This document shows positions 18,832-64,000 of a DNA stretch of 64,000 nt, one piece after another; positions within the stretch are counted from its first letter, which is position 1; each line of letters begins with the position of its first letter. The notes below the pieces were generated by a model. The model was not told where the DNA came from. It did not search any database and saw nothing but the letters and a program-made list of their open reading frames with translations. The translations under genes and the position numbers were made by a program. The DNA is from Cyanophora paradoxa CCMP329. Taxonomy: Eukaryota; Plantae; Glaucophyta. The DNA lies in the NCBI GenBank assembly GCA_004431415.1, contig QPMI01000068.1, forward strand, positions 62,001 through 126,000, given 5' to 3'.

Positions 18832-18852
18832 AGAAGAAATGGATTTACAAGA

Positions 18853-25862: not shown

Positions 25863-25891
25863 TTTAATATATGAATATAGATAAAAGGAGA

Positions 25892-27490: not shown

Positions 27491-27492
27491 TC

Positions 27493-28863: not shown

Positions 28864-28916
28864 ACCATATTCAGTCACATCGTATTATTTTTATCTGGTT
28901 CTTTATAGAAGGAAGC

Positions 28917-29699
28917 ATGGGCGACTTGGACGAATTTAATGCTGGTGAGATGATAAATCCCCCTTTCCGCGTTTTGGCAATTGGCAAATCTGCTACTGGT
29001 AAATCAGAGGCTGTAAAGTATTGGCTCAAGCAGCTTCATGATGCCAAAAAGATTGATGTCGTTTTGGTGGTGAGTGGAACAAGCTTTAATCATTTCTGGG
29101 ATAAGGTGGCCACATTACAATTGGGGAAATGGGACGCCCCTTACATTGCTAAATTGCTGGATGAAAGGCAAGAGAAAATAGAAAAGGGGGAACCTGTAAA
29201 CCAATTATGTGTTGTTTTGGACGACCTTATTGACAACGAAATAGTAGATTTAACCCGAGATAAAATAATCGGAAGTCTTTACAGTCGTGGTAGACATTCG
29301 AAAATATCTATTATCTGTATCACACAAAAGCTGAGGAAAGTCTCATCGACCATTCGCATCAACTCAGATTATGCTATGTTCCTAAGCGCTGCCAATAGAA
29401 AAGAGCTTGAAGCCATTGAGGAAGAATACAATATAATGCGGGACAAAGATGTTTTCTATAAAATGTTTGAAGAATATGTACATTCCTATCAGTTTCTAAT
29501 TTGGTCATCTGCCGATTATTCTGTGAAATATTTCGTAGATAAAGCGGATTTGGTCAAAGATTTCCCATTTCCACGGTTCCACAGGAAGCCAAAGAAGAAA
29601 GAAGATGAGCTTAAACCACCAGAGAAAGAAGAAGGGCGAAAAGAAGTCAAAAGCCAAGTTCATAGTAATAAGTTAATGCGATATAAACGCGGTCTATAA
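28917..29699 (+). CDS. A32-like packaging ATPase, L family
   Basis: GKSATGKS, CVVLDD, RGRHSKIS, Q..VSSTIRIN. Confidence 0.9.
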   Translation: MGDLDEFNAGEMINPPFRVLAIGKSATGKSEAVKYWLKQLHDAKKIDVVLVVSGTSFNHFWDKVATLQLGKWDAPYIAKLLDERQEKIEKGEPVNQLCVVLDDLIDNEIVDLTRDKIIGSLYSRGRHSKISIICITQKLRKVSSTIRINSDYAMFLSAANRKELEAIEEEYNIMRDKDVFYKMFEEYVHSYQFLIWSSADYSVKYFVDKADLVKDFPFPRFHRKPKKKEDELKPPEKEEGRKEVKSQVHSNKLMRYKRGL

Positions 29700-31674: not shown

Positions 31675-31877
31675 CAGGGTAGACAGGAGGTAGACAGAAG
31701 GTAGACAGGGTAGAGGGTTGTTTGTAAACTTTCTTAGGAAAATCCCTCCTCGCGGGAAGTTTTACATACAACCCTCTACCCTGTCTACCCAGACCCTCTA
31801 CCCTCTACCCTCTACCCTCTACCCTGTCTACCCAGACCCTCTACCCTCTACCCTCTACCCCCTACCCTCTACCCTCA
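31675..31877. promoter_or_regulatory. Putative replication origin: inverted iteron arrays around a 64-bp core
   Basis: GGTAGACAG/GGTAGAGG repeats face CTCTACC/CTGTCTACC repeats, immediately downstream of the primase-helicase. Confidence 0.55.
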
Positions 31878-43151: not shown

Positions 43152-43257
43152 GAGTGTTGAGGGTGTTGAGAGTGTTGAGGGTTATATGTAAAAATTCCCG
43201 CGAGAGGGGATTTTCATAAGAAAGTTTACAAACAACCCTCAACACCCTCAACACCCC
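43152..43257. promoter_or_regulatory. Second origin-like element, inverted relative to 31713-31776
   Basis: Core 43177-43240 matches the first core at 59/64 nt (reverse complement); flanked by GTGTTGAG/CTCAACAC repeats. Confidence 0.55.
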
Positions 43258-43334: not shown

Positions 43335-43409
43335 ACACATAGGGATACCCCTGATCCAAGCCCTCCGGCCTTCGGCCTACAGGCTTGGATCAGGGGTATC
43401 CCTATGTGT
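43335..43409. repeat. Perfect 28-bp-stem hairpin at a junction
   Basis: ACACATAGGGATACCCCTGATCCAAGCC-N19-GGCTTGGATCAGGGGTATCCCTATGTGT, followed directly by codon ~7 of a fibre gene. Confidence 0.9.
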
Positions 43410-46400: not shown

Positions 46401-47573
46401 TTTGTCCATACTGAATGTAATCAAACCTTTCCTGTGGTTCATCCAGGAGGTGAGTATGTGATACCCGATGATCCAGCTATTATGCCCATTAAGATTGATC
46501 TCCCTTCTGATTATGTGGGAAGGGGTGAACTAAAAACTATTTCATTCACAGGAGATTATAATGATCTCATAAACAAACCCACCGCAGCAAATCTACACCC
46601 TGTTGCATTTTCAGGTAGTTTCCTCGACCTTAATAATAGATCACACACCAATACAAAGGCAGAAATCACAGATTTCGCACACACTCACACCAAGTCCCAA
46701 ATAACAGATTTCGCACACACCCACAGCCGAGCAGATATTACTAATTTTGCTCACACTCATTTTGAATCTGAAATCACAGATTTCGCACATACTCACACAA
46801 AGTCACAGATTACAGATTTTTCACACACTCATGTGAAGAGTGAAATTACAGATTTTGCTCACAATCACACAAAGGCAGAGATTACAGATTTTGCTCACAA
46901 TCACACAAAGGCAGAGATAACAGATTTTGCACACACTCATGATTGGAATACAGATATTTATAACAAACCAGCGATTTTCTCGGGCAACTACAATGATTTG
47001 ACCAATAGACCAACTCTTGATCCCTTCACAGCAACCACAATTAGAGCCAACAACACAATGTATGTAGGATCGGGTCAGATTGTAGAGCCAGCAGGACCTA
47101 TGTTTGAAGAAACATGGTTTTTCCACAATTCGCAAAATTACTTTGATAAGACCTTACTCGTTCGTGGAAATGCTTATGCAAGGAATTTCTATGCTATGAA
47201 CCCTTCAAATAATGCGACTATCAGTAGATGCATTACGGAAGCAGATCTTTCAAGTCAACTCAATTCATTTTTTAATGGGAAAATTCAAGCAGGTAAGTAT
47301 GTTTACACTACTCCTGTTTTAAATTACAATAATCTATATGTGTTCAATCTTACTATCTATTTTACCAATGCCTTTGCTTCTCCTCCTGTTGTTACAGCAA
47401 CTGTAAGGCATGAAGGACAAGAACCAAATTATCAAGTAACTCCCGTCGTTTTTACTGTGAACCTGTTGGAGGTTTACAGTAACTATTTCACTTGTGAACT
47501 TTTCACTGATCCATATGCAATGAATAATTCATCCAAAACTGTAACAATCCATTTCATTGCTGTCGCAATTTAA
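43410..47573 (+). pseudogene. Fibre-like protein, third copy; start lost, internal indels
   Basis: Homologous to 8557 from ANLQTI onward. Duplicated FASAGN...VTEDYL module, ~9 HTHTK-ITDFA repeats, and a C-terminal F..AF...PVV...IHFIAV tail-fibre/H-lectin-like head. Confidence 0.75.
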
Positions 47574-47592
47574 CTATTTCGTAAATATAAAG

Positions 47593-48648
47593 ATGACCTC
47601 ATTATTAGAGATCCCAAACTATGAACTTGCAGCCAAATCACTCCATAACACCTCTCATGGAGTAGTCGACTCTACACCCGGAAATATTTGCACTGAAACT
47701 TCAAGCAATACCTCTTTCACAGAGAACAATATACTCAGAGTCAAAGAAATTCGATGTGATCGCAATAATGGTAAGATAAGAACCACAGGTATTATTATCT
47801 CGAATAAAAATCAAGTTCAAGCGGGTCAAGTAGTCCCTGATTCATCAATTTACGATAATACAGGTGGATTTACCACAGCAGAGATAGTTACTTTTGGTAA
47901 CACAAGTAATAATTCCGCTCTTGTGGTTAAGAGTGGAGGAGCATACATTGGTGATGGGGCAAATGTTGCAGGGACTGTTACAGCAAACCAACTAAATGTG
48001 AGTGAGACAAGTTCATTTACAGGAGTGATATCTTTGAATGGTGGTCTCTCAGGAAGTGTCCAATATGGAACTCTCACAGCTACTACAAGATTAAATGCAC
48101 CCGAGATAGATAATGGATCAGATACCAATATGAACTATAAACGAAATGGTATAACGATTTTTTCTCTTGAAAAGATACCTTCCAATTTACAGACACCCAC
48201 TCATTATGAGACTCTGACGCTATCAAACGAAAAGTATTTGAAACGGAATGGTTGCCCAAGGTTTTTTGCCGCAAAGCAATCTCCAAATGGAGCTTTAACT
48301 TTTACTATACCTTCTGGATCTGGTCCAATAACTTCTTATGGGACAGAGTTGGTAGATCAGGGAAATTGCTTTGATCCTACAACAGGCACTTTTACAGCAC
48401 CAATCGCTGGATGTTATAGGTTCTTCTTCTCAATTGGAACTTCGTCGACTATATTCTATTTAATGTTATACACAAATGGAGCAGATACCGGATTGCAAGT
48501 GTATAACCAAGAAAAAGGTGGAGTCACTTGCTATGGACTTGATATTTTAATAAATCTTTCCCAAAATGATTCTATACAACTTTATTATCCTTACTCAACA
48601 TATCCCTCCCGTTTACTTTTTGGTGGAATGCTTGTGAGTTTAACATAA
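47593..48648 (+). CDS. Putative receptor-binding protein with C-terminal C1q domain
   Basis: FDPTTGTFTAPIAGCYRF...LSQNDSI...FGGMLV; N-terminus shared with three paralogues. Confidence 0.75.
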   Translation: MTSLLEIPNYELAAKSLHNTSHGVVDSTPGNICTETSSNTSFTENNILRVKEIRCDRNNGKIRTTGIIISNKNQVQAGQVVPDSSIYDNTGGFTTAEIVTFGNTSNNSALVVKSGGAYIGDGANVAGTVTANQLNVSETSSFTGVISLNGGLSGSVQYGTLTATTRLNAPEIDNGSDTNMNYKRNGITIFSLEKIPSNLQTPTHYETLTLSNEKYLKRNGCPRFFAAKQSPNGALTFTIPSGSGPITSYGTELVDQGNCFDPTTGTFTAPIAGCYRFFFSIGTSSTIFYLMLYTNGADTGLQVYNQEKGGVTCYGLDILINLSQNDSIQLYYPYSTYPSRLLFGGMLVSLT

Positions 48649-48670
48649 TATTGTCTGTCTAATATAAAGT

Positions 48671-49699
48671 ATGACCACTCAAATAGCAGTTCCTGTTTTC
48701 TGTTACGCAGCCCCAAAAATACATCAACTTAACCACACTGTTACAGATGCAACACCTGGGTTCATTTGCACAGAGACCACAGGAGCCGACTCATTCTCTC
48801 AGAACTCAGTCATAAGATGCAAAGAAATAAGATGTGATAGAAACGGAGGTAAAGTGAGAACCACAGGACTCATTGTATCAAACAAGAACCAAGTTCAATC
48901 AGGTCAGATTGTTTCTGATTTTGCAATATATGACGATGTGGGAGGAGTCACCACACCTAAAATAATAACTTTTGACAACACCATTAATAACTCAGCTCTT
49001 GTTGTAAGAAGTGGAGGTGCATACATAGGAGATGGTGCAAGAATTGATGGAACTCTTACAACTAATCAAGTAAACATTACAGGAACAAGCACATTTACAG
49101 GTTTGGTGACAGCAAATGCTGGTATCTCTATACCTAATCAGTCCCAACAGATAGTCCAAGCATCAACAAAAGTAATTACCCCTGAAATAGATACTGGCTC
49201 AGCCACAAATCTGCTTCTGAAAAGAAATAGCAATACCGTGGTGTCACTTGAATCCAACTGTCTGACAATCAACACACAGAACTATTTAAAATATCATTCC
49301 CAACCACGGTTTTGTGTTCAGCTAAATTATAACCATACAGCAACAAGCGCCACTGCTTTGATAAATTGGGGAATTGTTCATTTAAATCATCCTACAAATC
49401 ATTTTTCAGTTGCAAATGGGAGATTCACCGCACCTGTTTCAGGGCATTACCGTTTTTCAGCTGTTACCTACTCACAAGCCTCAACACTACCCATAGAGCT
49501 AACTCTTCAAGTAAATGATGCGAATCCAAGTGGTGTTGCAATAAATGTAATTGCTTCAAACACTGCTGGATACAAAACCATTTCGCTAAATTGCATTCTC
49601 TATATTGCTGCTAATGAGTATGTAACACTTGTAACAAATACAAATGGAGTTTATACTTCTAAAACAGCATTTTCAGGTGAGCTTATCAGCATTACATAA
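48671..49699 (+). CDS. Putative receptor-binding protein with C-terminal C1q domain
   Basis: FSVANGRFTAPVSGHYRF...ANEYV...FSGELI; paralogue of 47593. Confidence 0.75.
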   Translation: MTTQIAVPVFCYAAPKIHQLNHTVTDATPGFICTETTGADSFSQNSVIRCKEIRCDRNGGKVRTTGLIVSNKNQVQSGQIVSDFAIYDDVGGVTTPKIITFDNTINNSALVVRSGGAYIGDGARIDGTLTTNQVNITGTSTFTGLVTANAGISIPNQSQQIVQASTKVITPEIDTGSATNLLLKRNSNTVVSLESNCLTINTQNYLKYHSQPRFCVQLNYNHTATSATALINWGIVHLNHPTNHFSVANGRFTAPVSGHYRFSAVTYSQASTLPIELTLQVNDANPSGVAINVIASNTAGYKTISLNCILYIAANEYVTLVTNTNGVYTSKTAFSGELISIT

Positions 49700-49720
49700 T
49701 TTTCTCATCATTAAATAGGA

Positions 49721-49984
49721 ATGTCAAATATCTACCAAGTGGTTCTCTCAGATACTGAAAAATTGGGAATGGAATATTGCGCTGCTTCTGTTCAGGATTG
49801 GATTGATAATGCTGCCCACAACAGAGCAAGGATTGCAATCGAGGAGATTGTTCAGAAAGAAATTCAGTCTTGCATTTCTGTGGGAGTTCAAATACCAACC
49901 TCAAAGGAAGCGATTGTATTACAGGCGTTCCAAAGAGGAACTGTTATAAAAGCGATTGAGTATAACAATGTCACATTAGAGTAG
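49721..49984 (+). CDS. Small protein, possible fibre chaperone
   Basis: DWIDNAAHNRARIAIEEI resembles, from memory, small proteins that follow tail-fibre genes in marine phages; not verified. Confidence 0.5.
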   Translation: MSNIYQVVLSDTEKLGMEYCAASVQDWIDNAAHNRARIAIEEIVQKEIQSCISVGVQIPTSKEAIVLQAFQRGTVIKAIEYNNVTLE

Positions 49985-50022
49985 TGAACATTATTTTTCT
50001 TTCCTTCTTAGTAAAAGAAGCA

Positions 50023-50865
50023 ATGGGCGAATATAATCGTGTGCAATTACCAGTTTACGCTTTGGGATCGCCCGCGGTTCACTTTCGACAACATGAGGTA
50101 GCCGACGAAATCCGCGGTGTGGAATCTACGGAACGCGCTAATTCCGCGAATGCATTCGATAAAAACAGTATGATACGTGTTAAAGAACTACGAGCCGATA
50201 AGAATTCGGGAGTGGTTAAAACGACTCAACTTCTTGTTACAAATGCGAATTTTAACGCGGGTATTGGGCAACCTGATGCATGGGGTGTGGATATTAGAAC
50301 GTTAGATTTTGACGGAGAACGTGCCGCCGCTGTTGTCCGATCAGGAGGCGCTGTTATTGGTGGCGGTTGTCGTGTGTCGGGTATGCTTGCATCCTCCATT
50401 GCCGTCACCGATATTCCCGATACTCTACCTGAGCATGCGGAGAATCCACAACGTATCCGTATGTATACTCCATGTGGAGACTATCCTTACGTGTTTGGAA
50501 TGGTCAGAGTTGGGGTAGATAACGTAAATGCAACACAACCCGATGGAATTATGGGAAATTGGTTACTACCAAATATTGCTATTCCTAAATCTATTGAGTC
50601 TATATGTCGTTCACAAAATGGTATTATCGGACCGGCTTATACTTTCTTTGTTCAGGGAATCTGACGCGGTAGAGGTTGGGTGGAATTCGACAACCAGAAC
50701 CCCGCTACGTTTAATGTTTGGACGACAGAAGTAGGAGGTTACGATATTCTCATTTTCGGAATGCGAACAGATCCAGCCGCTGTGGCGGCTACACGTGGTC
50801 TCAATCCCGATAACAACCTAAATAACTTCTACGATGATCCGTTCCCAGGTGATCCCACACCATAA
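50023..50865 (+). pseudogene. Third paralogue of the KE(I/L)RxDxNxG family, in-frame TGA at 50662-50664
   Basis: RVKELRADKNSGVVKTT...VRSGGA.IG; ORF 50680-50865 continues in the same frame. Confidence 0.6.
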
Positions 50866-50929
50866 TTATGTTTTAATATATTAAATGGCGGCACCCGCTC
50901 CACCTGAGCGTATCTTAACAGCGCAACTT

Positions 50930-51120
50930 AGCTGAGCTGTGAGCATTACACCCAAAAATTACCCCAATATAATTTGCCCCTTCAAGCAATATCCGCATGA
51001 TTCCCAGTAACCCAATCCCCAATCTCAGTAAATCTCAGTAAGCCTCAGTCACAATCTATTTTATTTAATCGAAGTTATATCTAAAATCTAATCAATCGAA
51101 GTTATATGCATTACACCCAA
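50930..51120 (+). repeat. Left TIR of S2
   Basis: Reverse complement of 62204-62394. Confidence 0.95.
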
Positions 51121-51269
51121 ATTTTACCGCATTTTATTTACGACATTCAGTAACAACGAGAGATTCCCGATGATACACCCAATATACCCATATTTCTCGA
51201 TTGAATCCATAAAAAACAACAAACCATAACTAACACCCGTTACACTTTAAATTTTCCGATTGATTCACA

Positions 51270-51728
51270 TTACACCCATGAGTTGTAAGATGACATAATA
51301 CCCATTTCACGGAAGAGATTAACGCGCTGTTGACATACATAATATCTTCCTTTCTCTTTTGTGTAATTCACCAAATCTTTCCACGGGTTTCTACACATCA
51401 TATGTTTTTCATTCCATGTTAAATACTTTCTCGGAACCAGAGTAACAGTTAAACCACTCGAACGATTTTTAAATTCCTCTTCTATTTCCTTTCGTTTTAT
51501 TTTCAATTCGTCTAATCGTTTTTCGCAATCTATGTGGTTTAATATCCTCGAATTTCCCTCATCTTCTTCTCTGTTTTCTTCTTCTTTGGCTCTCTCTAAA
51601 TTCTGTTCCTCCCGGTGTTTCTCACAATAGACAGTATATCTTTGAGATTCATAGCTGAAAAAGTCATGGGATCTTCGAACTGTGCAGCATCCACAATCTT
51701 CATATGTTTCCGTCGTTTCCCACCCCAT
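51270..51728 (-). CDS. Cys/His motif plus coiled-coil hypothetical protein
   Basis: CGC...HDFF...YCEKH; AAAATTGA ~37 nt upstream. Confidence 0.7.
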   Translation of the reverse strand: MGWETTETYEDCGCCTVRRSHDFFSYESQRYTVYCEKHREEQNLERAKEEENREEDEGNSRILNHIDCEKRLDELKIKRKEIEEEFKNRSSGLTVTLVPRKYLTWNEKHMMCRNPWKDLVNYTKEKGRYYVCQQRVNLFREMGIMSSYNSWV

Positions 51729-51825
51729 CGTTATTACTACCTCTCAAATTCCTTTTAAACTCTGTCAATTTTTGTCCCGATGCAAAAAATGACGCTCTTT
51801 TTTAAGAGTTTATAACTTTGTAACC

Positions 51826-52293
51826 ATGGAACAATACCTTAACTTTTTCAAGCAAAACAACATAACCTATAAGGATGTTTCACATGTATTTGCGAAAAGT
51901 TTCGAAAGAGGATATATTATGATTGCACAGTTAGCAGTGAAAACACCAGAGATGGTTTATATTGCTCAATTGAAAAAAGACACGGCACCATGTTTCCGAA
52001 TTCAGGGTTACATTAAAAATGCTGTGGTTGTTATCAAAAATGACGATTTCATAGTTTCTCCTGAATTCAAAGAGAACCATGTAAGAGATTTTCTTAGCCA
52101 CCCATACAATTGTAATGTTTGTCTCGATGATAAGGAAAATGGGATAAGATGTGATACATGTAATGCTTCCGTTTGTTACAAATGTTGGGCGGAAATGAGC
52201 ATGAATACAAATAAGAAATGTCCGGCATGCCGTAAAGATTTAGATTACCCGTTTATAATCCAAAATGGACTTAATACATTCGTTGTTGTCTAA
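51826..52293 (+). CDS. RING-finger protein (putative E3 ligase)
   Basis: CNVC...CDTC...CYKC...CPAC. Confidence 0.7.
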   Translation: MEQYLNFFKQNNITYKDVSHVFAKSFERGYIMIAQLAVKTPEMVYIAQLKKDTAPCFRIQGYIKNAVVVIKNDDFIVSPEFKENHVRDFLSHPYNCNVCLDDKENGIRCDTCNASVCYKCWAEMSMNTNKKCPACRKDLDYPFIIQNGLNTFVVV

Positions 52294-53055
52294 ACTGTTA
52301 TCGTCGTGGGTTCATTACTAATTCTTATTGATTCTCTCTTTTTTATCGCTCGTCTCTTAACAAACTTCTTAAAGCCCTTCATATCATCGTCTGTTAGTAT
52401 TGCCCGATCAGTATATATTTTATATCATACCCTTGCAATCCAGTTATGACAGTTTGGTAATTGTAACCCATAGTCTATGAAGTTCCTTGTAAGTCTTCTT
52501 ATCGAGACCCCCATTATACTCATCAAAGGCGCAATTGAACTCTTTTTCGTTCCCAAGAATATTGAAAAATACTACGAACTCAACATTTCGACGAATGGTA
52601 GTAGAAATAGAGCATAAACGTTGAGTATTAATAATTACTGTAATCGAATAATGACGGGCTGTCGTAATCAATTTAGAAAGGACAGCTGAATTATGCATAT
52701 CCAAAGAAGAACCTATCATATCGTCTAAGATTATAACCAAATTATTACGCTTCTCATTATTCTCAATTCGTTTCTTTTGCATGCTAATGAGTTTCACTAC
52801 TACATTATCGTCCCATTCCTCATAGATATTATCAGGATGCGTTATATCTCTGAATTGACCAGTAAACGCAGTAGAACTAAAGACTACAATCTGATCGATC
52901 TTATCCCTCAGTTCATAAAGTAGATATTTGCAGTAAGTTGTCTTACCAGAATTGCTGCGCCCACATAATAAAAAACGCGTGCTTAATTTAACTGTTCTTG
53001 CAGGCTCAAACTCTGGGATGTCATTCAAATCAATATCCATTCCTGTGTTATCCAT
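52290..53055 (-). CDS. A32-like packaging ATPase (1-nt indels near the 3' end)
   Basis: GRSNSGKT, LVIILDD, ARHYSIT; homology to 2132-2890 continues past the GGG/GGGG slip at ~52468. Confidence 0.88.
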
Positions 53056-53134
53056 TACAGTAATAAGATAAAAAACAAAATAAACCCCTTACCTACTAAT
53101 TTTGCGCTTCCTACTCTAACGAAAGAAAAGAACT

Positions 53135-54361
53135 TTAAAAGTTCGAGACTTTCAGGGTAGAGATGTTGTAGCCATTGAGGACCATAACATTGTGTCGTAG
53201 GGCATAGATGTCAACCTGAACAGGAGCTGCATCAGTGCATCCCGAAACAGTGAGATCCATGTAGCTCGAACTGCTGTTGAAGAAATCCTGGTAACCCATA
53301 ACCGAATTGTGGAGCGAATCTTTTCCGGACTTGGAAAGAACAATCCCGTAAACGTTTCCAGACTCGAATCCATAAGTAGTATTGCCAACAGTAACACCCT
53401 TGTAATGAGAAGGAATGTGATTGATAGCCGAGAGGAAACCAGAAATGGGTTTGTTGGAGATATCCAGGGAGCGATTGTTGTGGAAGATCTGGAACTGATC
53501 GATCTTAACATCCGAAACATGACCACAGAAATCAGAGTGAGTGTAGGTGTTAAGTTTGTTCACCTCTCGAACTGTCATGAGAATCGAATGAACCAGACCA
53601 GAAACATTAGCGAGTGTCACCTCAACCGATTCACCAGCATCAGCTGTTTTGAGCGCTCGTGTCTTCTTGTGGATGACCTCTGTGATCGGAATGCGAATAC
53701 CACCTTGTTCATTTGCCATTTTCAAAAGTGTCTCAGCCTCAGCCGAAGCGATGTTTACAAATTGACAGATCAGGGAGCAATCCGCAAATGTAACAGATCC
53801 ACCAGCAGGAACTTTGACTATCCCAGCATCACGGAAATCCACCTCAATCGTTGGCATATCGGCTAACGTACATAATGGAAAGTAAGCATCATCCCAGAAA
53901 GCAGCGGGAATTTTCACAATGTATTCCATAGCCTCATCTGTGCTTTCACGATCAAGTTCTTTGAAGTAACCAAGAGAAGCATACATGCTGCTCATGGTAG
54001 CATGATCATTATCAATCAGAGCGTTAACAGTAATCCAGTCACCAGGGATGATATACTTGAAACCACCATGAACGAAACGGACCTCATTAATAAAAGAAGA
54101 ACCACCATTGGGGAGGGTGCAGGCTACACCACCACCAGTGGCAATCTTGAAATAGAGCGAAACACCAGCAAGGAGTTGCTTGCGAGGTAGATCAAAGTAA
54201 GCGGTATTCTTGAAGCCAAAAGTGTTGCCTCGGGGACGAACTTGCTCGAGGAATGGTTTGTATTTGGGGTTGGTTCCGATTTGGAGACCAGGGGAAAGAT
54301 AAATTTGATCGGAACCGGGAGTAATGAGGAGTTCCTTAAGGGTAGTTCCAGTGAGTGCCAT
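53135..54361 (-). CDS. Major capsid protein, S family
   Basis: 408 aa; 10 amino-acid differences from 788-2014 by my count. Confidence 0.8.
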   Translation of the reverse strand: MALTGTTLKELLITPGSDQIYLSPGLQIGTNPKYKPFLEQVRPRGNTFGFKNTAYFDLPRKQLLAGVSLYFKIATGGGVACTLPNGGSSFINEVRFVHGGFKYIIPGDWITVNALIDNDHATMSSMYASLGYFKELDRESTDEAMEYIVKIPAAFWDDAYFPLCTLADMPTIEVDFRDAGIVKVPAGGSVTFADCSLICQFVNIASAEAETLLKMANEQGGIRIPITEVIHKKTRALKTADAGESVEVTLANVSGLVHSILMTVREVNKLNTYTHSDFCGHVSDVKIDQFQIFHNNRSLDISNKPISGFLSAINHIPSHYKGVTVGNTTYGFESGNVYGIVLSKSGKDSLHNSVMGYQDFFNSSSSYMDLTVSGCTDAAPVQVDIYALRHNVMVLNGYNISTLKVSNF

Positions 54362-54413
54362 CTCTTATGTTTAAAATACCAAAAGAAATTTTTAAAATGC
54401 TTTATTAAACAGA

Positions 54414-55312
54414 ATGACGCGTCATTACCTTAATATTGATTCCAGGGACCGAGATGATGGAACCCCAACGAACTTTACTTACAAAATTCCCATGCAATCC
54501 AAAATGTGAGAGCCTGCAGAGTGACTAACTTTGAGATGTTCAATAACATTTACAATCTTAGCGAGAATGGAAGTTTGATTACAGGAACCTATGATGTTGG
54601 GGATGTAATTAAGACCAAGAGTAACACTATTTCGAAAGGGACATATACTTCGGATAGTTTGGTGAATCTTCTAAATGCCAAACTAGCTTCACAAGTGTAC
54701 GGAGCAGCGGGAACTACATATACTCGCCATTTCTACGTTACATATGATCCTGTTACCATGTTTCTACGGTTCATGTGCGATGCAACATTTACCCTCACCT
54801 TTGGAAGTCGGATCTTAGCGAACTTCCTTGGTTTCCCAGATCGCAGACCTGACAGTTCTGAAAATGGATACGCTTCTGCCCTGCTCGATTCACCTGTAAC
54901 AGTTGGAGCTTATACTTATAATTACTACATTGACAGTGTTATACCGCTCGATCTTCTGTTCAACTCTTACATCCTTCTACATGTCGATCCACTCAAAGGC
55001 AATTATGTTAGCAAGAATACCAGTGATGATAAAGCCCTCGCAAAAATCGAGATTGATCAAACGGTAGGCAGTCTGCTAAAATACGATTCATCGAATAATT
55101 CCATGATCCTGCATGAGCAAAATGGTTTAGTGGAAGTGGAAACGCTAAAAGTTCGTCTCACATACTGGAATGGTGCTGAAACGGATATTACCACTGACTG
55201 GTCGATGACTCTCGAACTCATTACGGAAGATGATAAAGATCTGACCAAGAAAGCATTGAAGAATGTCATTAAAGAGTTGGAGGGACTCTACTTGCCGTTC
55301 TCACGGTCATAG
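54414..55312 (+). CDS. Minor capsid (penton-like) protein, 1-nt slip at ~54490
   Basis: MTRHYLNIDSRDR... joins the 54506 ORF frame; C-terminal LKVRLTYWNG...WSMTLEL. Confidence 0.75.
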
Positions 55313-55488
55313 GAAATACTGTAGAATAAATTTGTCTCGATATTACAAATGGCAACTCGAAAGACCCAGCCAAAGAATTTCTTAGCCAAACCAGTTGAGC
55401 AAGCAGAACCAGAACGGAAACAGTTTAAGAAATCAAAAGAACCGCTGCATATGGAACTGGTGATCTCGATAAAAATGTTCACCAAACC

Positions 55489-56097
55489 ATGAATGCTCAC
55501 ACAATCGCGCTTACTTCAAACTCAAATGATGATAATGCCCTGGTTGACCAAGTCCCACTGAACCGCATGCCTGGAGCCAAACGAGGAATCAAGAAAGGAC
55601 AGTTCAAATCATCGACAAAGGACAAGGTTGCCTCATCATCAACACTGCTGAAACTGCTTGATGGTGGTGAGCGACTCTACTCAACCTATTCCGAGAAAGA
55701 CCATCGCAACCGCTACTTTATTCGTTCAACCACTGGTGGACTGAAATCTGTGACATACCAGTATGCTAAGAGTCTTGTTGATGGCATTGCAGCAGAGACC
55801 AAAAACGAAAACAGGATCAAGGAACAGCTAATCACAAAGGAAAAGGTGGAGAAGAAACCAGAAGTAACCCATGAAGTCATCCCTGAACCTGTTCATATCG
55901 TGAAAGAATCACCAGCCGAATTGATTGCAAAGACCATCGATTATCAAGAGTCCAACAAAACGGATTTGCCGGTCCTCAATAAATCGATCCTCCGGGTTGC
56001 CACTTCGCAGGCTGATCCAGTCAACTCGATTCCAAATGCTGCCCCAATGGTCTCAGGGTTTGCCAAGCTCGGTATTAAACCTGGATATCGCCGTTAA
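55489..56097 (+). CDS. Hypothetical basic protein (true start may be ~55349 with a frameshift)
   Basis: 202-aa ORF; a short upstream ORF MATRKTQPK overlaps it in another frame. Confidence 0.55.
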   Translation: MNAHTIALTSNSNDDNALVDQVPLNRMPGAKRGIKKGQFKSSTKDKVASSSTLLKLLDGGERLYSTYSEKDHRNRYFIRSTTGGLKSVTYQYAKSLVDGIAAETKNENRIKEQLITKEKVEKKPEVTHEVIPEPVHIVKESPAELIAKTIDYQESNKTDLPVLNKSILRVATSQADPVNSIPNAAPMVSGFAKLGIKPGYRR

Positions 56098-56446
56098 GGA
56101 TCATTTCGGAATAAAAAAATCTTGAATATTGTTAGCGCTACGTAACCAATCCTATCCCGTAGGCTCAAAACTTCTTCATTTTTATGGAGGCGTTGTAGAG
56201 CGAAGTGACTATCCATAGGTTAATCACTTTTCATCACCCGTTCTACCGGGTTCAGTGGTAGAAACTTGCAGCCGACAAGTGAACCTTTTGGGTATCGGTG
56301 GCTTTATCATTTTTCCAGCATTTTCTTTCGAACTGGATGCTCTGCGATTGGGACCAAAATTTGATTGGGTTCTTGAAAAAAGTATATACTGACAAGGAAA
56401 ACCATTTAAAGATTTCTCAGCCTATATTAAAAGAAGAAGAGCGAAA

Positions 56447-56701
56447 ATGCCAGTCAGTGAGGCTCAGAAGAGGGCTATTTACCGCTACCGCAAAACCGAA
56501 AAAGGACAGGAATACCTGAAGAAATTCAATGAGAGATTGGCAAAGCAAATGCGTGACTTGTATCACACTGATGAATGTTTCAGAGCTATGCGACTCGTTG
56601 ACAGTTCGCAGCGCCAGTATACCGCTAATGCCATTTGCTTCATCAAATACTTGTATGGAGTTCCGTACTCAAACCGTGGACGCAAGTCAAAGTATGTATG
56701 A
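56447..56701 (+). CDS. Small basic protein
   Basis: MPVSEAQKRAIYRYRK...ICFIKYLY...RGRKSKYV; similar to 34496-34687. Confidence 0.6.
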   Translation: MPVSEAQKRAIYRYRKTEKGQEYLKKFNERLAKQMRDLYHTDECFRAMRLVDSSQRQYTANAICFIKYLYGVPYSNRGRKSKYV

Positions 56702-56952
56702 ATCATTTTTCTCAGCGCGCTTGCTCTGAGAAACAATGCGGTAATCGCGCTCAAATAATACTCAATCAAAAGAGGCTCGTTAGCCGCATGTATTGCTCAT
56801 TTTTCGACCCTTCTTTATTTTTTTCGAATCTCAGTTCTCCGCTGAATTTTTATTGTTCGATACTTTTGGTTTTGCCGACAAAATTTGATTCGAGTATAAA
56901 AGTATTTAAAGAAAAAAATTGTAAGTATAGAATAAGAACAGTGAACAAAGAA

Positions 56953-59900
56953 ATGCCTCGTCCTTCAAATCTAAGATTGAAGAAGCGCAAGACAAAGTTC
57001 CTTGGTAGTTTATCCTATGGATATGCCAATGACCTGCTCACAGAAGAGCAGTTCAACTATTTCCTTCATGAGATAGCCTTCAAGAGACCGAGAGAGCAGA
57101 AGTTATTGGATCTTGAAGAAACTCTTGAGGGAATTCTCAGACCGAATGAAAGGGTGCAGAGATTTAATGATGAATTCGATAGGTTGGGCAACATTGATGC
57201 TGAGAGGCCCCAAGGGAGAACCAGAGAGGAGAGGAAGCAAGCCAAAAGAGCGGAGCGCTTTGATCGCAAGCAGAATAAGAAGGCTAAACGTTCCGCTCGT
57301 TCCCAGAAGAATGTGGAAAAGCAGCAAAGTAAGCAGTTCAAAGCGCTGGTAAGGAGAATCATAAGGGATATTGAGGCCCAGGATGGCGATACAGTCTCGC
57401 TTCGTGTGAGGTTTTACCGAATTCCTGAAGACTTCAATAACCTCCCAAACAACTACGATGTTGTTATCCACGAAGACACACCTTACATTGAAACACAAAA
57501 ATCCGGAAAACGCGCATTGATGCTTTCCTGCCCCAAGCAAGTGCTGGTGAGATTGCTTGAACAGGTGCAAGAGGACTTTAATAACTTCCTTGCATTGTGG
57601 ACTCTGAACGAGATTGCTTCCTTCCTGATTTCTATTGGGCAAAGCAACCCTCGCAATCGAGACTATCAATTCGTTAAGGTTTTCACGAATGATGCGCCCA
57701 ATGGATCAGACATCAAGTATCCAGAGGTGATGACAATCGAGGAGATTATTGTCAGCGATAACAAAACAGTATACCCTTTGAATGAACGAGTTCTGCGAGA
57801 TGGGCAGGCTCCAAAAATCGTTTCTCGTTTCGTGAAATACACCCTCAATGGTCAGGCTAAGTGTGTGATGGACCAAATATGTCCCGATGATTCACTTACC
57901 ATCAAAGATTGTTTAATCGAAGCATTACATCAGGTTCTATGCAAAGGGTTTGAGTATGCCCGCAGCATCAAGAAGTATAAGAAGGTCAACTACTCCGAAG
58001 ACTGGCTCTTTGCTCAGATCAAGGGATATGAACCTAAGCCTGATTCCGATTGGGGAGTGAGTTTTGATGAGCTTCTTCCTTTCTTGAAAAAGTGGCGCAT
58101 CAGGTTCATTGCAATTGGAAAGGATGACAAGGTTATTCATACTCTTTCCTTCAAACCGAATCGAACCAACTCTCACTTAGTTCCCGCAAGTGTTTATGTG
58201 CAGATTGCAAACGACCACGTTTATGTATTAAATAAGGATCTCAGTAAACTGGTTCGTTCTTTCAATGGAACTGGCGCCCGTGAAACCAAGAAGAGTATGG
58301 GTTCAGCAGCCATGAAATACAAGATCAAAACACAGTTCAACGATAACAGCTTCTTTGCTTACAGCGAGGAGGATATCATCAAGATCATTGCCAGAGAGAA
58401 AGATAGTAGTTCTGAAAAAATTAAGATCACATACAACAAGCCACTACTTGAGTTGTTGGGAAGCTTCCGAAAGGCTAATCACGAGGTTCACACTTCCATT
58501 ACTGATGAGGGAACAATAACCTACATTCACTACACAATAGAGGATAAAGATGTAATTATCCTTCCACCAGGCAACATGGTGGATATGGAAAATATTGATG
58601 TGAACCTTGCAGATGATGCGCATCGCAAGTTGTTTGATGAGATGAGTCAGATGATGTATAGGGCGCTTATCAACAAACCCTACAAGAGCAAATATAATCC
58701 AGAAACATATGCAGCATTTACTAAAGGGCAACAGAGTGCATTGACTGGGTTCTTTGGATCTGCCTCTGAGGTCCGAACAATGGTAGAGAACATTGCCTAT
58801 GGATCCATTGATACTCACAAGCTCGACATTTCCAAAGCATACACACACATCGTTTCGAAAGTGCTTAAGGTGTTTCCAGTTTTCAGTTCATTTGATAGAT
58901 TCGAAAAAGTCAAAGTGTCTTGCAGCTCGGACATCGAAGACAATTCGTTCTATTCCGTGAAAGTGAAAGCCAAACACTTCAAAGCATTCAGAAATTATGG
59001 TGAGGCGAATACCTTGAATCAATACAAGAGGATTCTCGTCGATTCAAAGTATAACCTGATGTATGGTGAGGTTTTGAAAGAGTTTTACGAGGATATTAAG
59101 GATGACATCAGCATTGAGGCAGTTCTAAGACCTTATCGGATTGCCGAGAATGTCACCTTGCAGGCTTTCAAGCAGTTGTATGCAAGTCAGCTTTCGACCA
59201 AGGAGAAGAAAGACATTGCCAACCATCACATTGGTCTATTTGGTAAGAAGTCCCAGCGAAAAGCAACCACCTACACCTTTTTCAATAAAAATGATGCTCT
59301 GAATTTCATTGAAGAGAATGGAGGGACCCTGAAGTTTATAAGTTTCGATCAAGAGAAGCCAACACACACATCAGTTAAGAATGAGAAGGACATTAAATCG
59401 CCCATGATTTGGTATGTGAACCAGGAAGAACAAGAACGGGCTTTCATTGATGGTTTCCTGCCAATGCAGTGCGTGATTTACTCCACCATGCGAGGCATCA
59501 TGTATCGCCTATGCAAGAAATTGCTCTCTGAGGGAGTGGGAGTCCTTGCAATCAAGACCGATGAGCTGACAATCGATAGACCATATCCATTCGAGCAGTT
59601 TGACCGAAACCTATTCGAGAACACTGGAAAGTTTGATGTGAAGCCAGCAAACATGAACTCGATAACCCACAGTAAGAGGACTTCCAAAAAACCAAAGAGC
59701 CACATGATCACATTTGATCGACTCAAAACTCGTTCCAAACCTTTCATCAATGTTGAAAAGATTGTTCACAAGGTTCACAAGTTCCAGGATGAGTATGACC
59801 TCCCAGCAATCGTAAATGCTTTGGATGGGCAAGGTAATGTGCTGATTAAAGGAGTGAAACCGGGAACTGGTAAGACTACTTTGGCAAAGGCAATGGCCAA

Positions 59901-61145
59901 GAAGTATGGTAAGAAATGCTTGTTCGTTGCGCCTACTAATAAGAGATGCAAGGATTTGCGAATGGAACTAAAAGCAGAGTGGGGCAGGATGCTCCTGAGG
60001 TGATGACTATTTATCGAGCCTTGAATTTGAATGTTGATGATGAGAGAATGAAGGGAAATGTTGGGAAGAAGGTTTCGGAATTATCTAAGTACGATTGCTT
60101 TGTTATTGATGAGATCTACCAGTTTGAGATTAGGGAATTGGAATCTCTGTGCGATGTGATGACTGTGCAGTTCCCAGACAAACTCTACATCGCAACAGGC
60201 GACCCCTACCAGAACCCACCCATCCAATTCATAACAGTCAATCAACGAGATTACTACAACAAGATCTTCGATAGACTATTCAAGAATGAGGTTTACCTGC
60301 AGGTTGGAAAGCGTCATAAACTGGCTGCAGATCAGAAGAAATTAGACCAGTTATGGGAGGACTTATTCAGGACTGAACTACCAGTTTCTATTGCTGCCAG
60401 ACGATTGGGCTTGAAAGTAGTTGATACATTGGAGAAGGGTGATATCTCAGTATGCAATTCAAACCGCAAGTGTGCAGAGGTGAACAACAAAATGCATAAA
60501 ATGATTCATGGAGAGGATCCTGTATATAAGACAGGTGTGGAGCTGATTGCAAAGGTGCGAATGACAACAAGTGAGGGCATCATTCAGCGGGGCTTTGTTT
60601 ACGAAGTGGTCGAATACAAAGCCAAGGAAATTCTCACTCTCAAAGACATTGATTCGGGTGAAGTGCATACTCTAAAAAGCGAAGATATCAAGTATTTCGC
60701 ATTGACCCATGCTTTCACCTGTCACATCATTCAGGGTGACACAATCAGGGATTCTCGTGTTGTAATTCACGAGACTGGGTCCCCATATGTTACTGCTGAG
60801 TGGTTCTATGTTGCAGCCACTCGAACCCAGAAACTCTCGGATACCGTGATTTTCGTTGATAAATCCGAGGCGGCTACAATGGTGAAAACGAAGGAGGATC
60901 AAGCTCAGAAAATCGATTCCTACAAATCCCAGGACAAACAAGCCAATCGGGAGTTCTCCTTGGCAGAGTATGTTGATTGGGACTGGTTCAAAAAGCAGTA
61001 TGGGAAGCAATTGGGGCGATGCAGAAGGTGCTTTGATATTATGGATTTCGAAGAAGCTACTGTCGATCGGGAGAACAATGCTATCGCTCACATTTCTCGA
61101 AACTGTTTCTTGTCACATTGTAGGTGTAACTGTTCAGCCCAGTAA
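56953..61145 (+). CDS. Divergent PolB - SF1 helicase - HNH-like fusion (frameshift at G-run ~59981-59985)
   Basis: PolB-like DISKAY, KDIANHHIGLFGK, IKTDE. Helicase GVKPGTGKT, VAPTN, VIDE, TGDPYQ, AFTCHIIQGDT, YVAATR. C-terminal C..C...VDR..N...H...N...CN. Confidence 0.85.
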
Positions 61146-62203
61146 TGGAGAATATTCTATCATACAAAAAATACAAACAGAAGCTCATTAGTGAAGGGAA
61201 GGAATTTGATGAGGCGGAACTGAGAAACAAGTATAAGAATTCCGAACTGCATCAAATTTTCAAGAAGCCTAGGAAAAAGACTACGTTTTTAAGAATAGTT
61301 GCCCAGCCATACTCATTTCAGGTTGATGTCATGTTTTTCAGAAAGTTTAAGACAGCAAATTATGGATATATTAAAGCGCTTAGTTTCATTGACATTCTAA
61401 GTAGAAAGGCATTTGTGTATGCTTTCAAGACCAGCGAAGAGATTCCGGGAATACTTAATAAATTCAAGGGCGAAGCAGGTAAGGTTGTAGGATTGGCAGG
61501 GGATAATGAGTTTTCCAGTGCGGTTTATCGAACTTGGTGCAGTGAAAATGGTGTCGAATTGTATACAGATGTTGCGAAAGAAGATCACATTTCTGCTGGG
61601 AATAAACTTGGGATAATCGATCGATTCACTCGAACCTTCAAACAATACATGAACAAACTCATGGTCTCGAGGAATACTTCGAAGTGGGTCGAATTAATCC
61701 CAGATGTGCTAAAGGCTTACAATAACTCGCCTCATTCATCACTGAACAATGATTCCCCAAACCAAGTGTTTGCAAGTCCACAGAAGCAAATGTTTATTTT
61801 CCTAAAAACCACCAAGCATAACATGGATGTTAAAGAGAATCAACCCGATAAAATCAAACCAGGAGATACTGTAAGAGTTTTAGAGGAGAGAGGTGCATTC
61901 TCAAAGGAAGGCCCCAGGTTTAGTCAGAAGATTTACAAAGTAGCTGGGAAAGATGCTAATCGATTCAAGGTGCTTGAAGATAATGGAGATGATGCAGAGG
62001 AATTAAAGAGACGTTTTAAGCAACAAGAGTTACAGAAAGTGAAACGAGATGAGATAATGAAAATTCCACAGCAAATGAGGATTCAAGCTGTAAAGAAAAC
62101 AAACACAGTGAATCGAAAAGTTGCAAAAGAGGGAATCAAACCAAATCGCAGCAAAGTTGTTAGAAAAAGGTATCAATTAAGAAGCGGATTAACTAAAAGG
62201 TAG
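61145..62203 (+). CDS. rve-type integrase (D-D-D triad)
   Basis: FQVDVM, IDILSRKA, GDNEF, IIDRFTRTFK, YNNSPHSSL, FSKE...FSQKIY. Confidence 0.9.
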   Translation: MENILSYKKYKQKLISEGKEFDEAELRNKYKNSELHQIFKKPRKKTTFLRIVAQPYSFQVDVMFFRKFKTANYGYIKALSFIDILSRKAFVYAFKTSEEIPGILNKFKGEAGKVVGLAGDNEFSSAVYRTWCSENGVELYTDVAKEDHISAGNKLGIIDRFTRTFKQYMNKLMVSRNTSKWVELIPDVLKAYNNSPHSSLNNDSPNQVFASPQKQMFIFLKTTKHNMDVKENQPDKIKPGDTVRVLEERGAFSKEGPRFSQKIYKVAGKDANRFKVLEDNGDDAEELKRRFKQQELQKVKRDEIMKIPQQMRIQAVKKTNTVNRKVAKEGIKPNRSKVVRKRYQLRSGLTKR

Positions 62204-62394
62204 TTGGGTGTAATGCATATAACTTCGATTGATTAGATTTTAGATATAACTTCGATTAAATAAAATAGATTGTGACTGAGGCTTACTGAGATTTACTGAG
62301 ATTGGGGATTGGGTTACTGGGAATCATGCGGATATTGCTTGAAGGGGCAAATTATATTGGGGTAATTTTTGGGTGTAATGCTCACAGCTCAGCT
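62204..62394 (-). repeat. Right TIR of S2
   Basis: Reverse complement of 50930-51120; begins right after the integrase stop codon. Confidence 0.95.
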
Positions 62395-62968
62395 CAACTT
62401 TCATTAGCCGCGCCAGCAAATCACGTATTACAACATGCCGTTATCGATAATGTCGATGGTTTAGAATCTACCGAACTTGCACCTACTCTTAATACTTTTG
62501 GTGATACGCATAAATTGCGACTCAAAGAGTTAAGATGTGACAAAAATAACGGAGTTGTGAAAACTACGAAACTTCTTGTTACAAATGCAAACTTTAACGC
62601 TTTTTATGGAGATCCCGATAGTTACAATGATGATAACAAGGTAACAAACTTTGCTTATGAATCGAGAAACGGAGCGATTAAATGTAGATCGGGTGGCGCT
62701 TACATTGGGGACGGACTAAGAGTTGGTGGTATCATTGGAGCGCCTCTTTTGGTTAATGATCAACCAAACCCCGATGATGAGAACACACGAATTAGGACGT
62801 ATTGCCCAGGTATGAATGAGCCTTACCTAATAAAGATTTATACAATCATTATTAGTTTACAAACAGCGGTAGCCGATGTATTAGAACCCTTAGGAAATCA
62901 TTATAGATATAGAGACACGATACCAGAGGACATTTACGCATTATGTAGAAGAACCGACGGAGCCGTAA

Positions 62969-64000
62969 GGAGCTGTTTCGCATGTCGCAGACGGCCCCGG
63001 ACGGACCTCGACGGGCCGAAAACGGCGCGACCTTTTGGACATCCCGCTAGTTCGCGAGCTTTAACAATGGATGGAATTTGAATTTTGAACACGGCCGTGT
63101 CACGGCGGCTATCAGCCGGCTGAGTTCGAGTTCGAGCTGGCTAGACCAAATTCTATATCCCCCCAAGCCATCTCCCCCCCCTTCCAAGCCACGGCCAGCT
63201 GCAGCTAGATTGCGGCCAGCCACGGACTTGCGCGGGAAAAGCAAAAGCGCTTATAGCTTAGCGTTCGGCGATCGAGATGCCGCTCTCTGTGCTGTCTGCC
63301 AAGGTCGGCTCAGCGTTCGGTTCCATTAGAGCGTGGCTGGGCGGCGCCAGCGATGGCAGGCCGCGGCACGGCCAGATTGGCGGCAGCACCTGCGGCAGCC
63401 AGGACGACCTCGGCGAGGACGTGAATCCAGACGACTTTGGCGACGCAGCTTTGAGCGAGCAAGTCGTTCAGCCTGCGCATGCAGCGCCAGCTGCGCATGC
63501 GACGGCCGCGGTCGCGCTGGCGCCTCCCGCGGCGGAGCCGGCGGGCGGGAGCGACTCCCACAAGTCTCGCCAGTACGCTCAGAGCTCGAGCAGAGCCCGG
63601 CAGCGGCTGCTGTGAGACGCCAGGGACGCCTTTGGGGGGGGGTACGCCTGTACAGCCGTGTACGCCGCCTGTCGCAGCTGCCTCATCAGCGACCCCCGTG
63701 TACACGCCTGATCGCCCGCGTCGCAAGCGGGTAGTAGCTGCGCCCTCGCAATCGCAGCCTTCGCATGATCAGCCGGCCACGCCTCCACGCACGCAGCCGC
63801 CGGCGGCAGCGGCCTCGCCAGCGACCCCCGTGGACATGCCTAAGCGCGTGAGTCGCAAGCGGGCAGCGGCGGCGACCTCCCAGCCTTCGCCCGCGGCGGC
63901 ACCGAGCGAGCAATATGAGGATCCCTTCGTTGCCATGGAGCGGTATATGGACGATCCCTCTGTCGCGCCGTCGCCTGCCAGCTCAGCCGCGAAGAAGCCA
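62969..64000. other. GC-rich non-viral sequence (host DNA or another transposon)
   Basis: Abrupt GC rise within a viral ORF after ...GCCGTAA; the other end is not in the window. Confidence 0.55.

What the first reader, a model, noticed from the sequence alone, without database searches (positions are those of the whole stretch)
50930..62394. Complete, very compact (11.5 kb) capsid-encoding integrating virus
Seen: matching 191-bp TIRs, a TSD, and about nine genes (Zn protein, RING, ATPase, MCP, penton, two hypotheticals, PolB-SF1-HNH fusion, integrase). No maturation protease or fibre is recognisable. This is small compared with typical 15-25 kb Polintons/PLVs, and the matching TIRs imply recent integration. 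The terminus AGCTG-AGCTG resembles the short terminal repeats used in protein-primed slide-back initiation (inference).
Basis: partly seen in the sequence, partly recalled or inferred. Interest (0 to 1): 0.7.

Follow-up and report, generated by a model that had tools for sequence, protein, structure and literature searches.

The report
Compact polinton-like provirus in glaucophyte alga
An 11.5-kb integrated DNA virus with identical ends and genes for a capsid, for integration and likely for copying its own DNA sits inside a gene of a larger integrated virus in what is likely the alga Cyanophora paradoxa; it is unusually small but otherwise a member of the known polinton-like viruses.

Summary
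The 11,465-bp element has identical 191-bp TIRs and a 6-bp TSD. It splits a 241-codon gene of a larger integrated polinton-type virus, and contigs of 2 of 4 runs hold an empty site. The MCP folds as a double jelly-roll (Z 29). Penton, A32 ATPase and rve integrase are supported. The replicase is one ~1,397-aa ORF: the window's frameshift is absent in 4 of 4 runs. By motifs it is a Tlr1-like vOTU-PolB-palm/SF1/HNH protein, a published PLV type (PMC5499653, PMC11161782). The likely host is Cyanophora paradoxa, where a near-identical MCP is already tabulated (PMC10120064, Table S2). Lack of a maturation protease is normal for PLVs (PMC4642659). Arm-to-TIR depth ratios argue against a deletion derivative, although copies differ near the start of the replicase. 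Three or four further one-base breaks are unverified. What stays notable is the size, below the usual 14-40 kb, the lack of any fibre or lipase gene, and that both family members in this window sit in genes of the larger virus. Verdict: new, compact member of a known kind.

The parts
50924..50929 (.). left copy of 6-bp target-site duplication
   Evidence: empty-site joint 50923->62395 with 6 shared letters in X2 and X16
50930..51120 (+). left TIR, 191 bp, starts 5'-AGCTGAGCTG
51270..51728 (-). 152-aa protein with Cys/His clusters (putative Zn ribbon) and a charged middle; function unknown
   Evidence: no family hit; homologue in the sibling's arm, 50% over 39 aa
51826..52293 (+). 155-aa protein with C-terminal C3HC4 RING finger (putative E3 ligase)
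   Evidence: Pfam zf-C3HC4_2 E 4.4e-6, 26.8 bits against a cut-off of 27; not found in the sibling's arm
52290..53055 (-). A32-like packaging ATPase, about 255 aa; two one-base breaks in the window copy, near 52469 and 52421
   Evidence: Pfam Pox_A32 E 1.8e-14; tblastn with the sibling's 252-aa ATPase needs three frames; the end is read from the sequence
53135..54361 (-). major capsid protein, 408 aa, double jelly-roll
   Evidence: AF2 pLDDT 67, pTM 0.75; Foldseek PBCV-1 capsid E 8e-19; VIA Z 29.2, rmsd 3.0, 336 aligned to faustovirus MCP
54414..55312 (+). minor capsid protein (penton), about 299 aa; one-base break near 54490 in the window copy
   Evidence: model residues 11-160 match EhV-201 and PBCV-1 capsid chains (Z 10.0, 8.6) and mavirus penton (Z 6.7, rmsd 4.1, 129 aligned); C-terminal half of the model is unreliable
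55350..56097 (+). lysine-rich hypothetical protein (a 46-aa and a 202-aa frame, probably one gene); putative core protein (inference)
   Evidence: no family hit for the 202-aa frame
56447..56701 (+). 84-aa basic hypothetical protein, putative DNA-binding (inference)
   Evidence: no credible family hit
56953..61145 (+). Tlr1-like replicase, about 1,397 aa: N-terminal region, vOTU-like Cys320/His422, PolB palm motifs A (D625), B (K753), C (KTD, D870), SF1B helicase (about 965-1300), C-terminal HNH-like motif
   Evidence: motifs; SF1 by Pfam PF01443 E 3.4e-5 and TIGR01447 recD E 3e-5; break at 59980 absent in 4 of 4 runs
61145..62203 (+). retroviral-type (rve) integrase, 352 aa, acidic triad D61-D120-D159
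   Evidence: NF033577 IS481-family E 1.4e-8; Pfam rve weak; 25% identical to the neighbour's rve integrase, E 1e-17; triad
62204..62394 (-). right TIR, 191 bp
62395..62400 (.). right copy of target-site duplication
50885..63081 (+). interrupted gene of a larger integrated polinton-type virus (241 codons when empty; its last 40 or so codons run into GC-rich repeat DNA)

Best explanation
This is an 11.5-kb integrated polinton-like virus (PLV) of the Tlr1 type, present at several sites in what is likely the glaucophyte Cyanophora paradoxa, which likely inserted itself with its own rve integrase, would copy its linear genome by protein priming with its single polymerase-helicase protein, and is predicted to package it into a double jelly-roll capsid. 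Steps: (1) Integration: the integrase would join the TIR ends to a target with a 6-base stagger. The TSD and an empty site are shown; the catalysis is inferred. (2) Release of a linear copy: inferred by analogy with polintons. (3) Replication: an N-terminal domain would prime at the AGCTG-AGCTG ends, the vOTU-like protease would cut it off, the exonuclease-less PolB palm would extend and the fused SF1B helicase would unwind. The motifs are shown; the activities are predicted, following PMC11161782. (4) Assembly from MCP, penton and A32 ATPase without a maturation protease. The folds are predicted; virions were not observed. The small size comes from keeping only four accessory genes and no fibre, lipase or methylase. 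Replicase plus integrase take 46% of the genome.
For: Identical TIRs, TSD and a restored target ORF. Empty-site contig in 2 of 4 runs. At least four other flanks behind the right TIR among the loose ends shown (table cut, 10 rows not shown). DJR MCP, penton, ATPase. The two MCP copies in the window differ at 66 synonymous and 10 non-synonymous codons of 409, as under purifying selection. The replicase is open in 4 of 4 runs, and one X2 contig spans 56343-62233. Cys-His spacing is 102 against 101, and motif A-B spacing 128 against 131, in the neighbour's canonical pPolB. Inner-TIR to replicase depth is 1.85-2.23 in 3 of 3 runs with both values; left arm to replicase is 0.69-0.94 in 3 of 3. Same architecture in print: Tlr1 has MCP, mCP, ATPase, rve and an SF1-fused replicase without protease (PMC5499653); KTD-type loss of the first motif-C Asp is compatible with activity (PMC11161782).
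Against: No profile, homologue or structure supports the PolB palm or vOTU: Pfam, PHROGs and NCBIfam give no PolB hit, the homologue search gave none, hhalign to the neighbour's pPolB was not significant, and the protein was not folded. The window copy has breaks in the ATPase and penton that the contig tables shown did not clear (30 indel rows not shown). The integrase's third acidic residue is Asp where the neighbour has Glu. At 56335-57283 this copy's sequence has only 19-42% of the replicase depth in X1 and X16, so other copies differ there and may be longer. The filled junction was not seen among the contigs listed (tables cut). No virion, excised form or transcript was shown.
Confidence: 0.72

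Rival explanations
1. It is a dependent satellite. It keeps its own capsid and replicase but needs a helper, either the larger co-resident polinton-type virus (fibres, patatin lipase, discoidin) or a giant virus, to make infectious particles.
For: No fibre, lipase or lectin gene among its nine genes, while the neighbours carry patatin, F5/8 and C1q-domain genes. Both family members in the window sit inside genes of the larger virus. PMC10120064 and PMC12220804 discuss helper-dependent elements (passages only).
Against: Two of two insertions is a tiny sample in a window that is largely viral. Two of the other flanks seen in runs look GC-rich and host-like (by eye). A penton can bind receptors itself (own knowledge). 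No helper was identified.
Confidence: 0.15
2. It moves only inside the genome as a self-synthesising transposon; the capsid genes are recent relics.
For: Multi-copy, several flanks. No particles known. No relatives in viral or metagenome contigs, though these are exact-pattern scans of low sensitivity.
Against: MCP divergence is mostly synonymous (66 against 10 codons). The whole morphogenetic module is kept in both copies. An RNA-guess run holds contigs of MCP/ATPase relatives (X18; not shown to be RNA).
Confidence: 0.07
3. It is a deletion derivative or a decayed copy of a longer virus.
For: Four or five frame breaks in the window copy. Short for a PLV. Heterogeneity at 56.2-57.3 kb.
Against: The placed breaks all lie in homopolymers. 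The one tested is absent in 4 of 4 runs, as are three more such deletions in the flank. Arms and TIRs occur in about 1:1:2 depth. All essential modules are present, with abutting genes.
Confidence: 0.06

Closest known systems
Tlr1 element of Tetrahymena and PLVs with Tlr1-like helicases (PMC5499653, parts 1-3 of 5 read; PMC11161782, passages and section 9 read)
   Same: MCP, penton, A32 ATPase, rve integrase (Tlr1), no maturation protease, TIRs; a 1,000-1,400-aa replicase with vOTU, PolB palm lacking the exonuclease and the first motif-C Asp, C-terminal SF1 helicase and a homing endonuclease (HNH in PLVs); a Zn-ribbon-like gene.
   Different: HNH rather than Tlr1's GIY-YIG; a very divergent MCP; nine genes in 11.5 kb, against 18-28 kb for the complete PLVs of PMC4642659; no Tlr6F-like gene detected by Pfam.
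Cyanophora paradoxa endogenous viruses catalogued in PMC10120064 (Tables S2, S4) and PMC12220804 (Table S6)
   Same: Table S2 row 24 lists a C. paradoxa MCP fragment nearly identical to this one, compared by eye. Table S4 counts 366 MCP hits in two clusters outside the named groups (272 and 94; clusters 21 and 29 by my column count). Table S6, as I read its columns, gives 156 glaucophyte elements: 0 with any of nine protease models, 34 with PIF1/AAA_30 helicase, 85 with rve.
   Different: I found no description of this 11.5-kb genome, its size or its nesting in the passages and table rows seen. Dataset S1 of PMC10120064 was not seen and may hold this very locus.
Polintons/Mavericks in the strict sense (PMC8097293, passages)
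   Same: 6-bp TSD, termini starting with AG as a short tandem repeat, rve integrase, capsid module.
   Different: No canonical pPolB (PF03175 hits the neighbour, but not this protein), no maturation protease, pentamer rather than di- or trinucleotide terminal repeat.
Mosaic and tandem polisuviruses (bioRxiv 10.64898/2026.10.13.758929, results parts 1-2 and section 13 read)
   Same: Tandem or nested integration, replicase turnover under one capsid module, PolB paired with DDE integrase; one of their examples is an EVE_QPMI01 contig, the C. paradoxa assembly prefix.
   Different: The sections read do not treat minimal genome size or insertion into genes of another polinton.
OmPLV of Oxyrrhis marina (PMC12721341, abstract and section 15 read)
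   Same: Endogenous PLV with a fused SF1 helicase and pPolB.
   Different: Opposite domain order, intact exonuclease, about 25 kb.

Membership tests
Polinton-like virus, Tlr1-type | [quoted passage not shown] | tested here: met
   (Z 29.2, rmsd 3.0, 336 aligned)
Polinton-like virus, Tlr1-type | single jelly-roll penton | tested here: met
   top three matches are EhV-201 and PBCV-1 capsid chains and mavirus penton (Z 10.0, 8.6, 6.7); only residues 11-160 are modelled well; Foldseek alone had no hit at E<=0.001
Polinton-like virus, Tlr1-type | A32-like packaging ATPase | tested here: met
   PF04665 E 1.8e-14
Polinton-like virus, Tlr1-type | no capsid maturation protease | tested here: met
   no protease family hit in three libraries; the 202-aa unassigned frame has no Cys and the 84-aa ORF is too short
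Polinton-like virus, Tlr1-type | C-terminal SF1 helicase in a 1,000-1,400-aa replicase | tested here: met
   single ORF
Polinton-like virus, Tlr1-type | PolB palm with motifs A, B, C and upstream vOTU Cys/His | tested here: inconclusive
   motifs are in the right order and spacing, but there is no profile, homologue or fold support
Polinton-like virus, Tlr1-type | linear genome with terminal inverted repeats | tested here: met
   191-bp identical TIRs; a free linear form was not observed
Polinton-like virus, Tlr1-type | MCP or helicase falls in a named PLV clade (Aquintoviricetes, GKS groups) | not tested
   no reference set could be fetched; five real homologues at 24-28% identity only; PMC10120064 leaves the C. 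paradoxa clusters outside its named groups
Polinton-like virus, Tlr1-type | virion formation | not testable with these tools
   needs culture work
Polinton/Maverick in the strict sense | canonical pPolB with exonuclease and DTD motif | tested here: not met
   no PF03175 hit while the neighbour's pPolB scores E 6e-11; motif C reads KTD
Polinton/Maverick in the strict sense | rve integrase, 6-bp TSD, AG-starting repeated termini | tested here: met
   known motifs from PMC8097293
Polinton/Maverick in the strict sense | maturation protease (in most members) | tested here: not met
Virophages | virophage-type MCP | tested here: inconclusive
   the model is closer to nucleocytovirus MCPs (Z 28-29) than to Sputnik or mavirus (Z 16-17); no phylogeny was made
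Virophages | maturation protease as core gene (PMC4642659) | tested here: not met
Transpovirons | no capsid module | tested here: not met
   MCP, penton and ATPase are present

The most novel reading that the evidence does not exclude
A near-minimal polinton-like virus that lives as a satellite of another polinton: it has shed its fibre and entry genes, homes into the genes of the larger co-resident polinton family, and borrows that family's fibres and lipase to spread, which would make it a PLV that parasitises a PLV.
Probability: 0.1. Interest if true: 0.7.

Novelty: new member of a known kind. Interest (0 to 1): 0.36.

Why it matters
At 11.5 kb with nine genes it lies at the low end of PLV genome sizes while keeping capsid, replicase and integrase. 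If the host is C. paradoxa, it sits in a cultured alga. That makes it a convenient test object for two open predictions: that Tlr1-like polymerase-helicase proteins are active protein-primed polymerases (PMC11161782 reversed the earlier 'inactivated' reading of PMC5499653), and that MCP, penton and ATPase alone make a particle. It does not define a new system, and its capsid family is already in published tables.

Tried and rejected
No whole genome is held for this window, so copies could not be counted or measured. Homologue searches: MCP 0 hits among 4,543 candidates; replicase residues 250-1016, 0 among 7,995; MCP profile 2 among 7,992; representative library 6 hits, of which P0004 was dropped as a repeat artefact. 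Related-locus scans found no relative: viral contigs with MCP, replicase N-part, helicase part and integrase, metagenome contigs with MCP. These need exact 8-residue words, so the blank says little. The Atlas returned nothing. PDB sequence searches gave only weak Pif1-type hits to the Walker A region (E 0.016) and none for the helicase body. Single-sequence hhalign of the vOTU and palm regions against the neighbour's pPolB was not significant. No RNA holder was listed; that is no evidence on expression. The replicase was not folded: both prediction jobs went to MCP and penton, and no alignment could be built. Rejected: a programmed frameshift at 59980; the missing protease as a novelty; summed contig depth as copy number. 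Literature: seven searches answered. None listed a paper devoted to Cyanophora PLVs or to an 11-12-kb complete PLV; the library lacks most subscription journals.
Full report
Boundaries. The element runs from 50930 to 62394 (11,465 bp, GC 0.41). Its ends are 191-bp inverted repeats with no mismatch, and CAACTT stands on both sides. Without the element and one copy of that hexamer, the flanks read as one 241-codon ORF from ATG 50885; the piece to the right is 37-39% identical to the three genes just upstream. Contigs of 2 of the 4 runs laid join 50923 to 62395 with six shared letters. That contig differs from the window's flank at 4-5 places, so it may come from another copy of the larger virus. 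The TSD is real either way.

Surroundings and host. The window is an island of integrated viruses with GC-rich stretches between them. A larger polinton-type virus supplies A32 ATPase, D5 primase-helicase, canonical pPolB, rve integrase, patatin, F5/8 and C1q-domain genes. A sibling of the small element fills 1-4454: 82% nucleotide identity over the capsid module, MCP 97.5% identical. It ends in 5'-AGCTCAGCAC and cuts the larger virus's MCP gene at about codon 158. One MCP homologue is a Cyanophora paradoxa protein, and Table S2 of PMC10120064 lists a C. paradoxa MCP fragment that is nearly identical to this one by eye. The host is therefore inferred to be that glaucophyte.

Capsid module. The 408-aa ORF had no hit in Pfam, PHROGs or NCBIfam and none among 4,543 candidates in the word-indexed search. 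Five real homologues at 24-28% identity came from the representative library (a sixth, a repeat protein, was dropped). An AlphaFold2 model from eight sequences (pLDDT 67, pTM 0.75) matches PBCV-1 and EhV-201 capsid proteins at E about 1e-18. It aligns to faustovirus MCP at Z 29.2 (rmsd 3.0, 336 residues) and to Sputnik and mavirus at Z 16-17. It is a double jelly-roll. The penton model is reliable only for about residues 20-150. Foldseek found nothing at E<=0.001, but the wide search ranked EhV-201 and PBCV-1 capsid chains and the mavirus penton first (Z 10.0, 8.6, 6.7); the first two titles do not name the chain. The ATPase matches PF04665. The two MCP copies differ at 66 synonymous and 10 non-synonymous codons.

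Replicase and integrase. The window shows two ORFs of 1,016 (from ATG 56953) and 399 aa. All four runs laid on this part hold one more base at 59980, so the family has one ORF of about 1,397 aa. Motifs in order: Cys320 and His422, 102 apart against 101 in the neighbour's pPolB; motif A D625; motif B K753; motif C KTD with D870; Walker A near 971; helicase motifs to about 1300; a C-terminal Cys/His motif like HNH. The helicase has profile support. The palm, vOTU and HNH rest on motifs only. This is the published domain order of Tlr1-like helicases (PMC5499653; PMC11161782), and the later paper predicts that such palms are active. The integrase matches IS481-family DDE enzymes (E 1.4e-8) and has a D-D-D triad.

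Is it intact, and is the size real? Against the sibling, the window copy also has one-base breaks in the ATPase (two) and the penton, and probably one in the ORF at 55350. The placed breaks lie in homopolymers, like the four deletions that the run contigs corrected. I infer assembly error but showed it only for the replicase. Contigs cover 51094-52388 and 56343-62233 unbroken in X2. Inner-TIR depth is about twice replicase depth in 3 of 3 runs, and the left arm is 0.69-0.94 of it in 3 of 3, so most copies with this replicase probably carry the same arms. At least four other flanks follow the right TIR in the loose ends shown. Against uniformity: the capsid module draws several times more summed depth at 85% likeness, so relatives share it, and this copy's 56335-57283 stretch has only 19-42% of the replicase depth in X1 and X16. 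Copies differ near codons 100-110 of the replicase. No contig spans the whole element, so longer variants are not excluded. The window copy also differs from the run contigs at 13 places in 59700-62233, most of them in 60818-61064.

Comparison with print. Stated size ranges are 18-28 kb for complete PLVs and 15-20 kb for polintons (PMC4642659, passages), generally 15-30 kb (PMC10120064, passages), 14-40 kb (PMC12220804, passages) and 10-50 kb for MELD viruses (PMC8502044, passages). Table S3 of PMC12220804 gives TIR-bounded PLVs down to 6.8-12.9 kb in several species, reading the columns as minimum, maximum and median; whether those are complete I did not check. So 11.5 kb is below the usual range but not outside what is catalogued. 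No PLV in PMC4642659 has a maturation protease, and none of the glaucophyte elements in Table S6 of PMC12220804 has one (my reading of the columns). Termini of repeated AG-starting words and 6-bp TSDs are polinton traits (PMC8097293, passages). Tandem integration and replicase exchange are described in bioRxiv 10.64898/2026.10.13.758929. PMC7805220, PMC8547959 and bioRxiv 10.64898/2026.06.19.733378 were seen as passages only; the last names polB-SF1 fusions among typical PLV replication genes. Dataset S1 of PMC10120064 and preprint supplements were not seen and may contain this locus.

Verdict. This is a compact, recently inserted, probably intact Tlr1-type PLV. It most likely integrates by its rve integrase, replicates by protein priming with a fused polymerase-helicase and packages into a double jelly-roll capsid (confidence 0.72; integration footprint shown, folds predicted, enzyme activities and virions inferred). 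It is a new member of a known kind. The bolder reading, a fibre-less satellite that homes into and borrows from a larger polinton, rests on 2 of 2 insertions in one virus-rich window and is given 0.1.

Noticed in passing
window 1-4454: Sibling of the element: capsid module 82% identical, a different left arm (Zn-gene homologue, no RING, short tandem repeats, TIR-like block at 3761, 4115 and 4298), terminus 5'-AGCTCAGCAC; it truncates the MCP gene of a larger polinton-type virus at about codon 158. Its other end lies outside the window.
   Followed up: partly
window 31701-31788 and 43165-43252: An 88-nt inverted repeat (84%) brackets the neighbour's D5 primase-helicase, split pPolB, rve integrase and a GC-rich stretch; it resembles the repeat-bracketed replication modules of bioRxiv 10.64898/2026.10.13.758929.
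   Followed up: no
window 34836-36176 versus 56953-57420: The N-terminus of the neighbour's canonical pPolB is weakly similar to the N-terminus of the Tlr1-like replicase (20% over 157 aa, E 0.001 in a two-sequence search): possibly a shared leader domain.
   Followed up: partly
window 4343-11283, 18790-29699, 43400-50929: Several copies or fragments of the larger virus's structural module in both orientations: two penton-like genes, F5/8 protein, patatin, long repeat-rich fibre-like genes, C1q-domain genes.
   Followed up: no
window 26420-26719 and 26956-27255: Identical duplication 536 bases apart inside a penton-like gene of the larger virus; a real tandem duplication or an assembly error.
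   Followed up: no
window 62964-64000: Abrupt switch to GC 0.66 DNA that is multi-copy in the runs; the larger virus stops here without a matching TIR in the window. Three homopolymer deletions (63158, 63556, 63595) are absent in the run contigs.
   Followed up: partly
window 60818-61064: Eight of the 13 differences between the window copy and the run contigs in 59700-62233 fall in this 250-base patch, as if from gene conversion or recombination with a variant.
   Followed up: no
window 22316-23600: Very G-rich array of about 26-27-base units between two viral modules.
   Followed up: no
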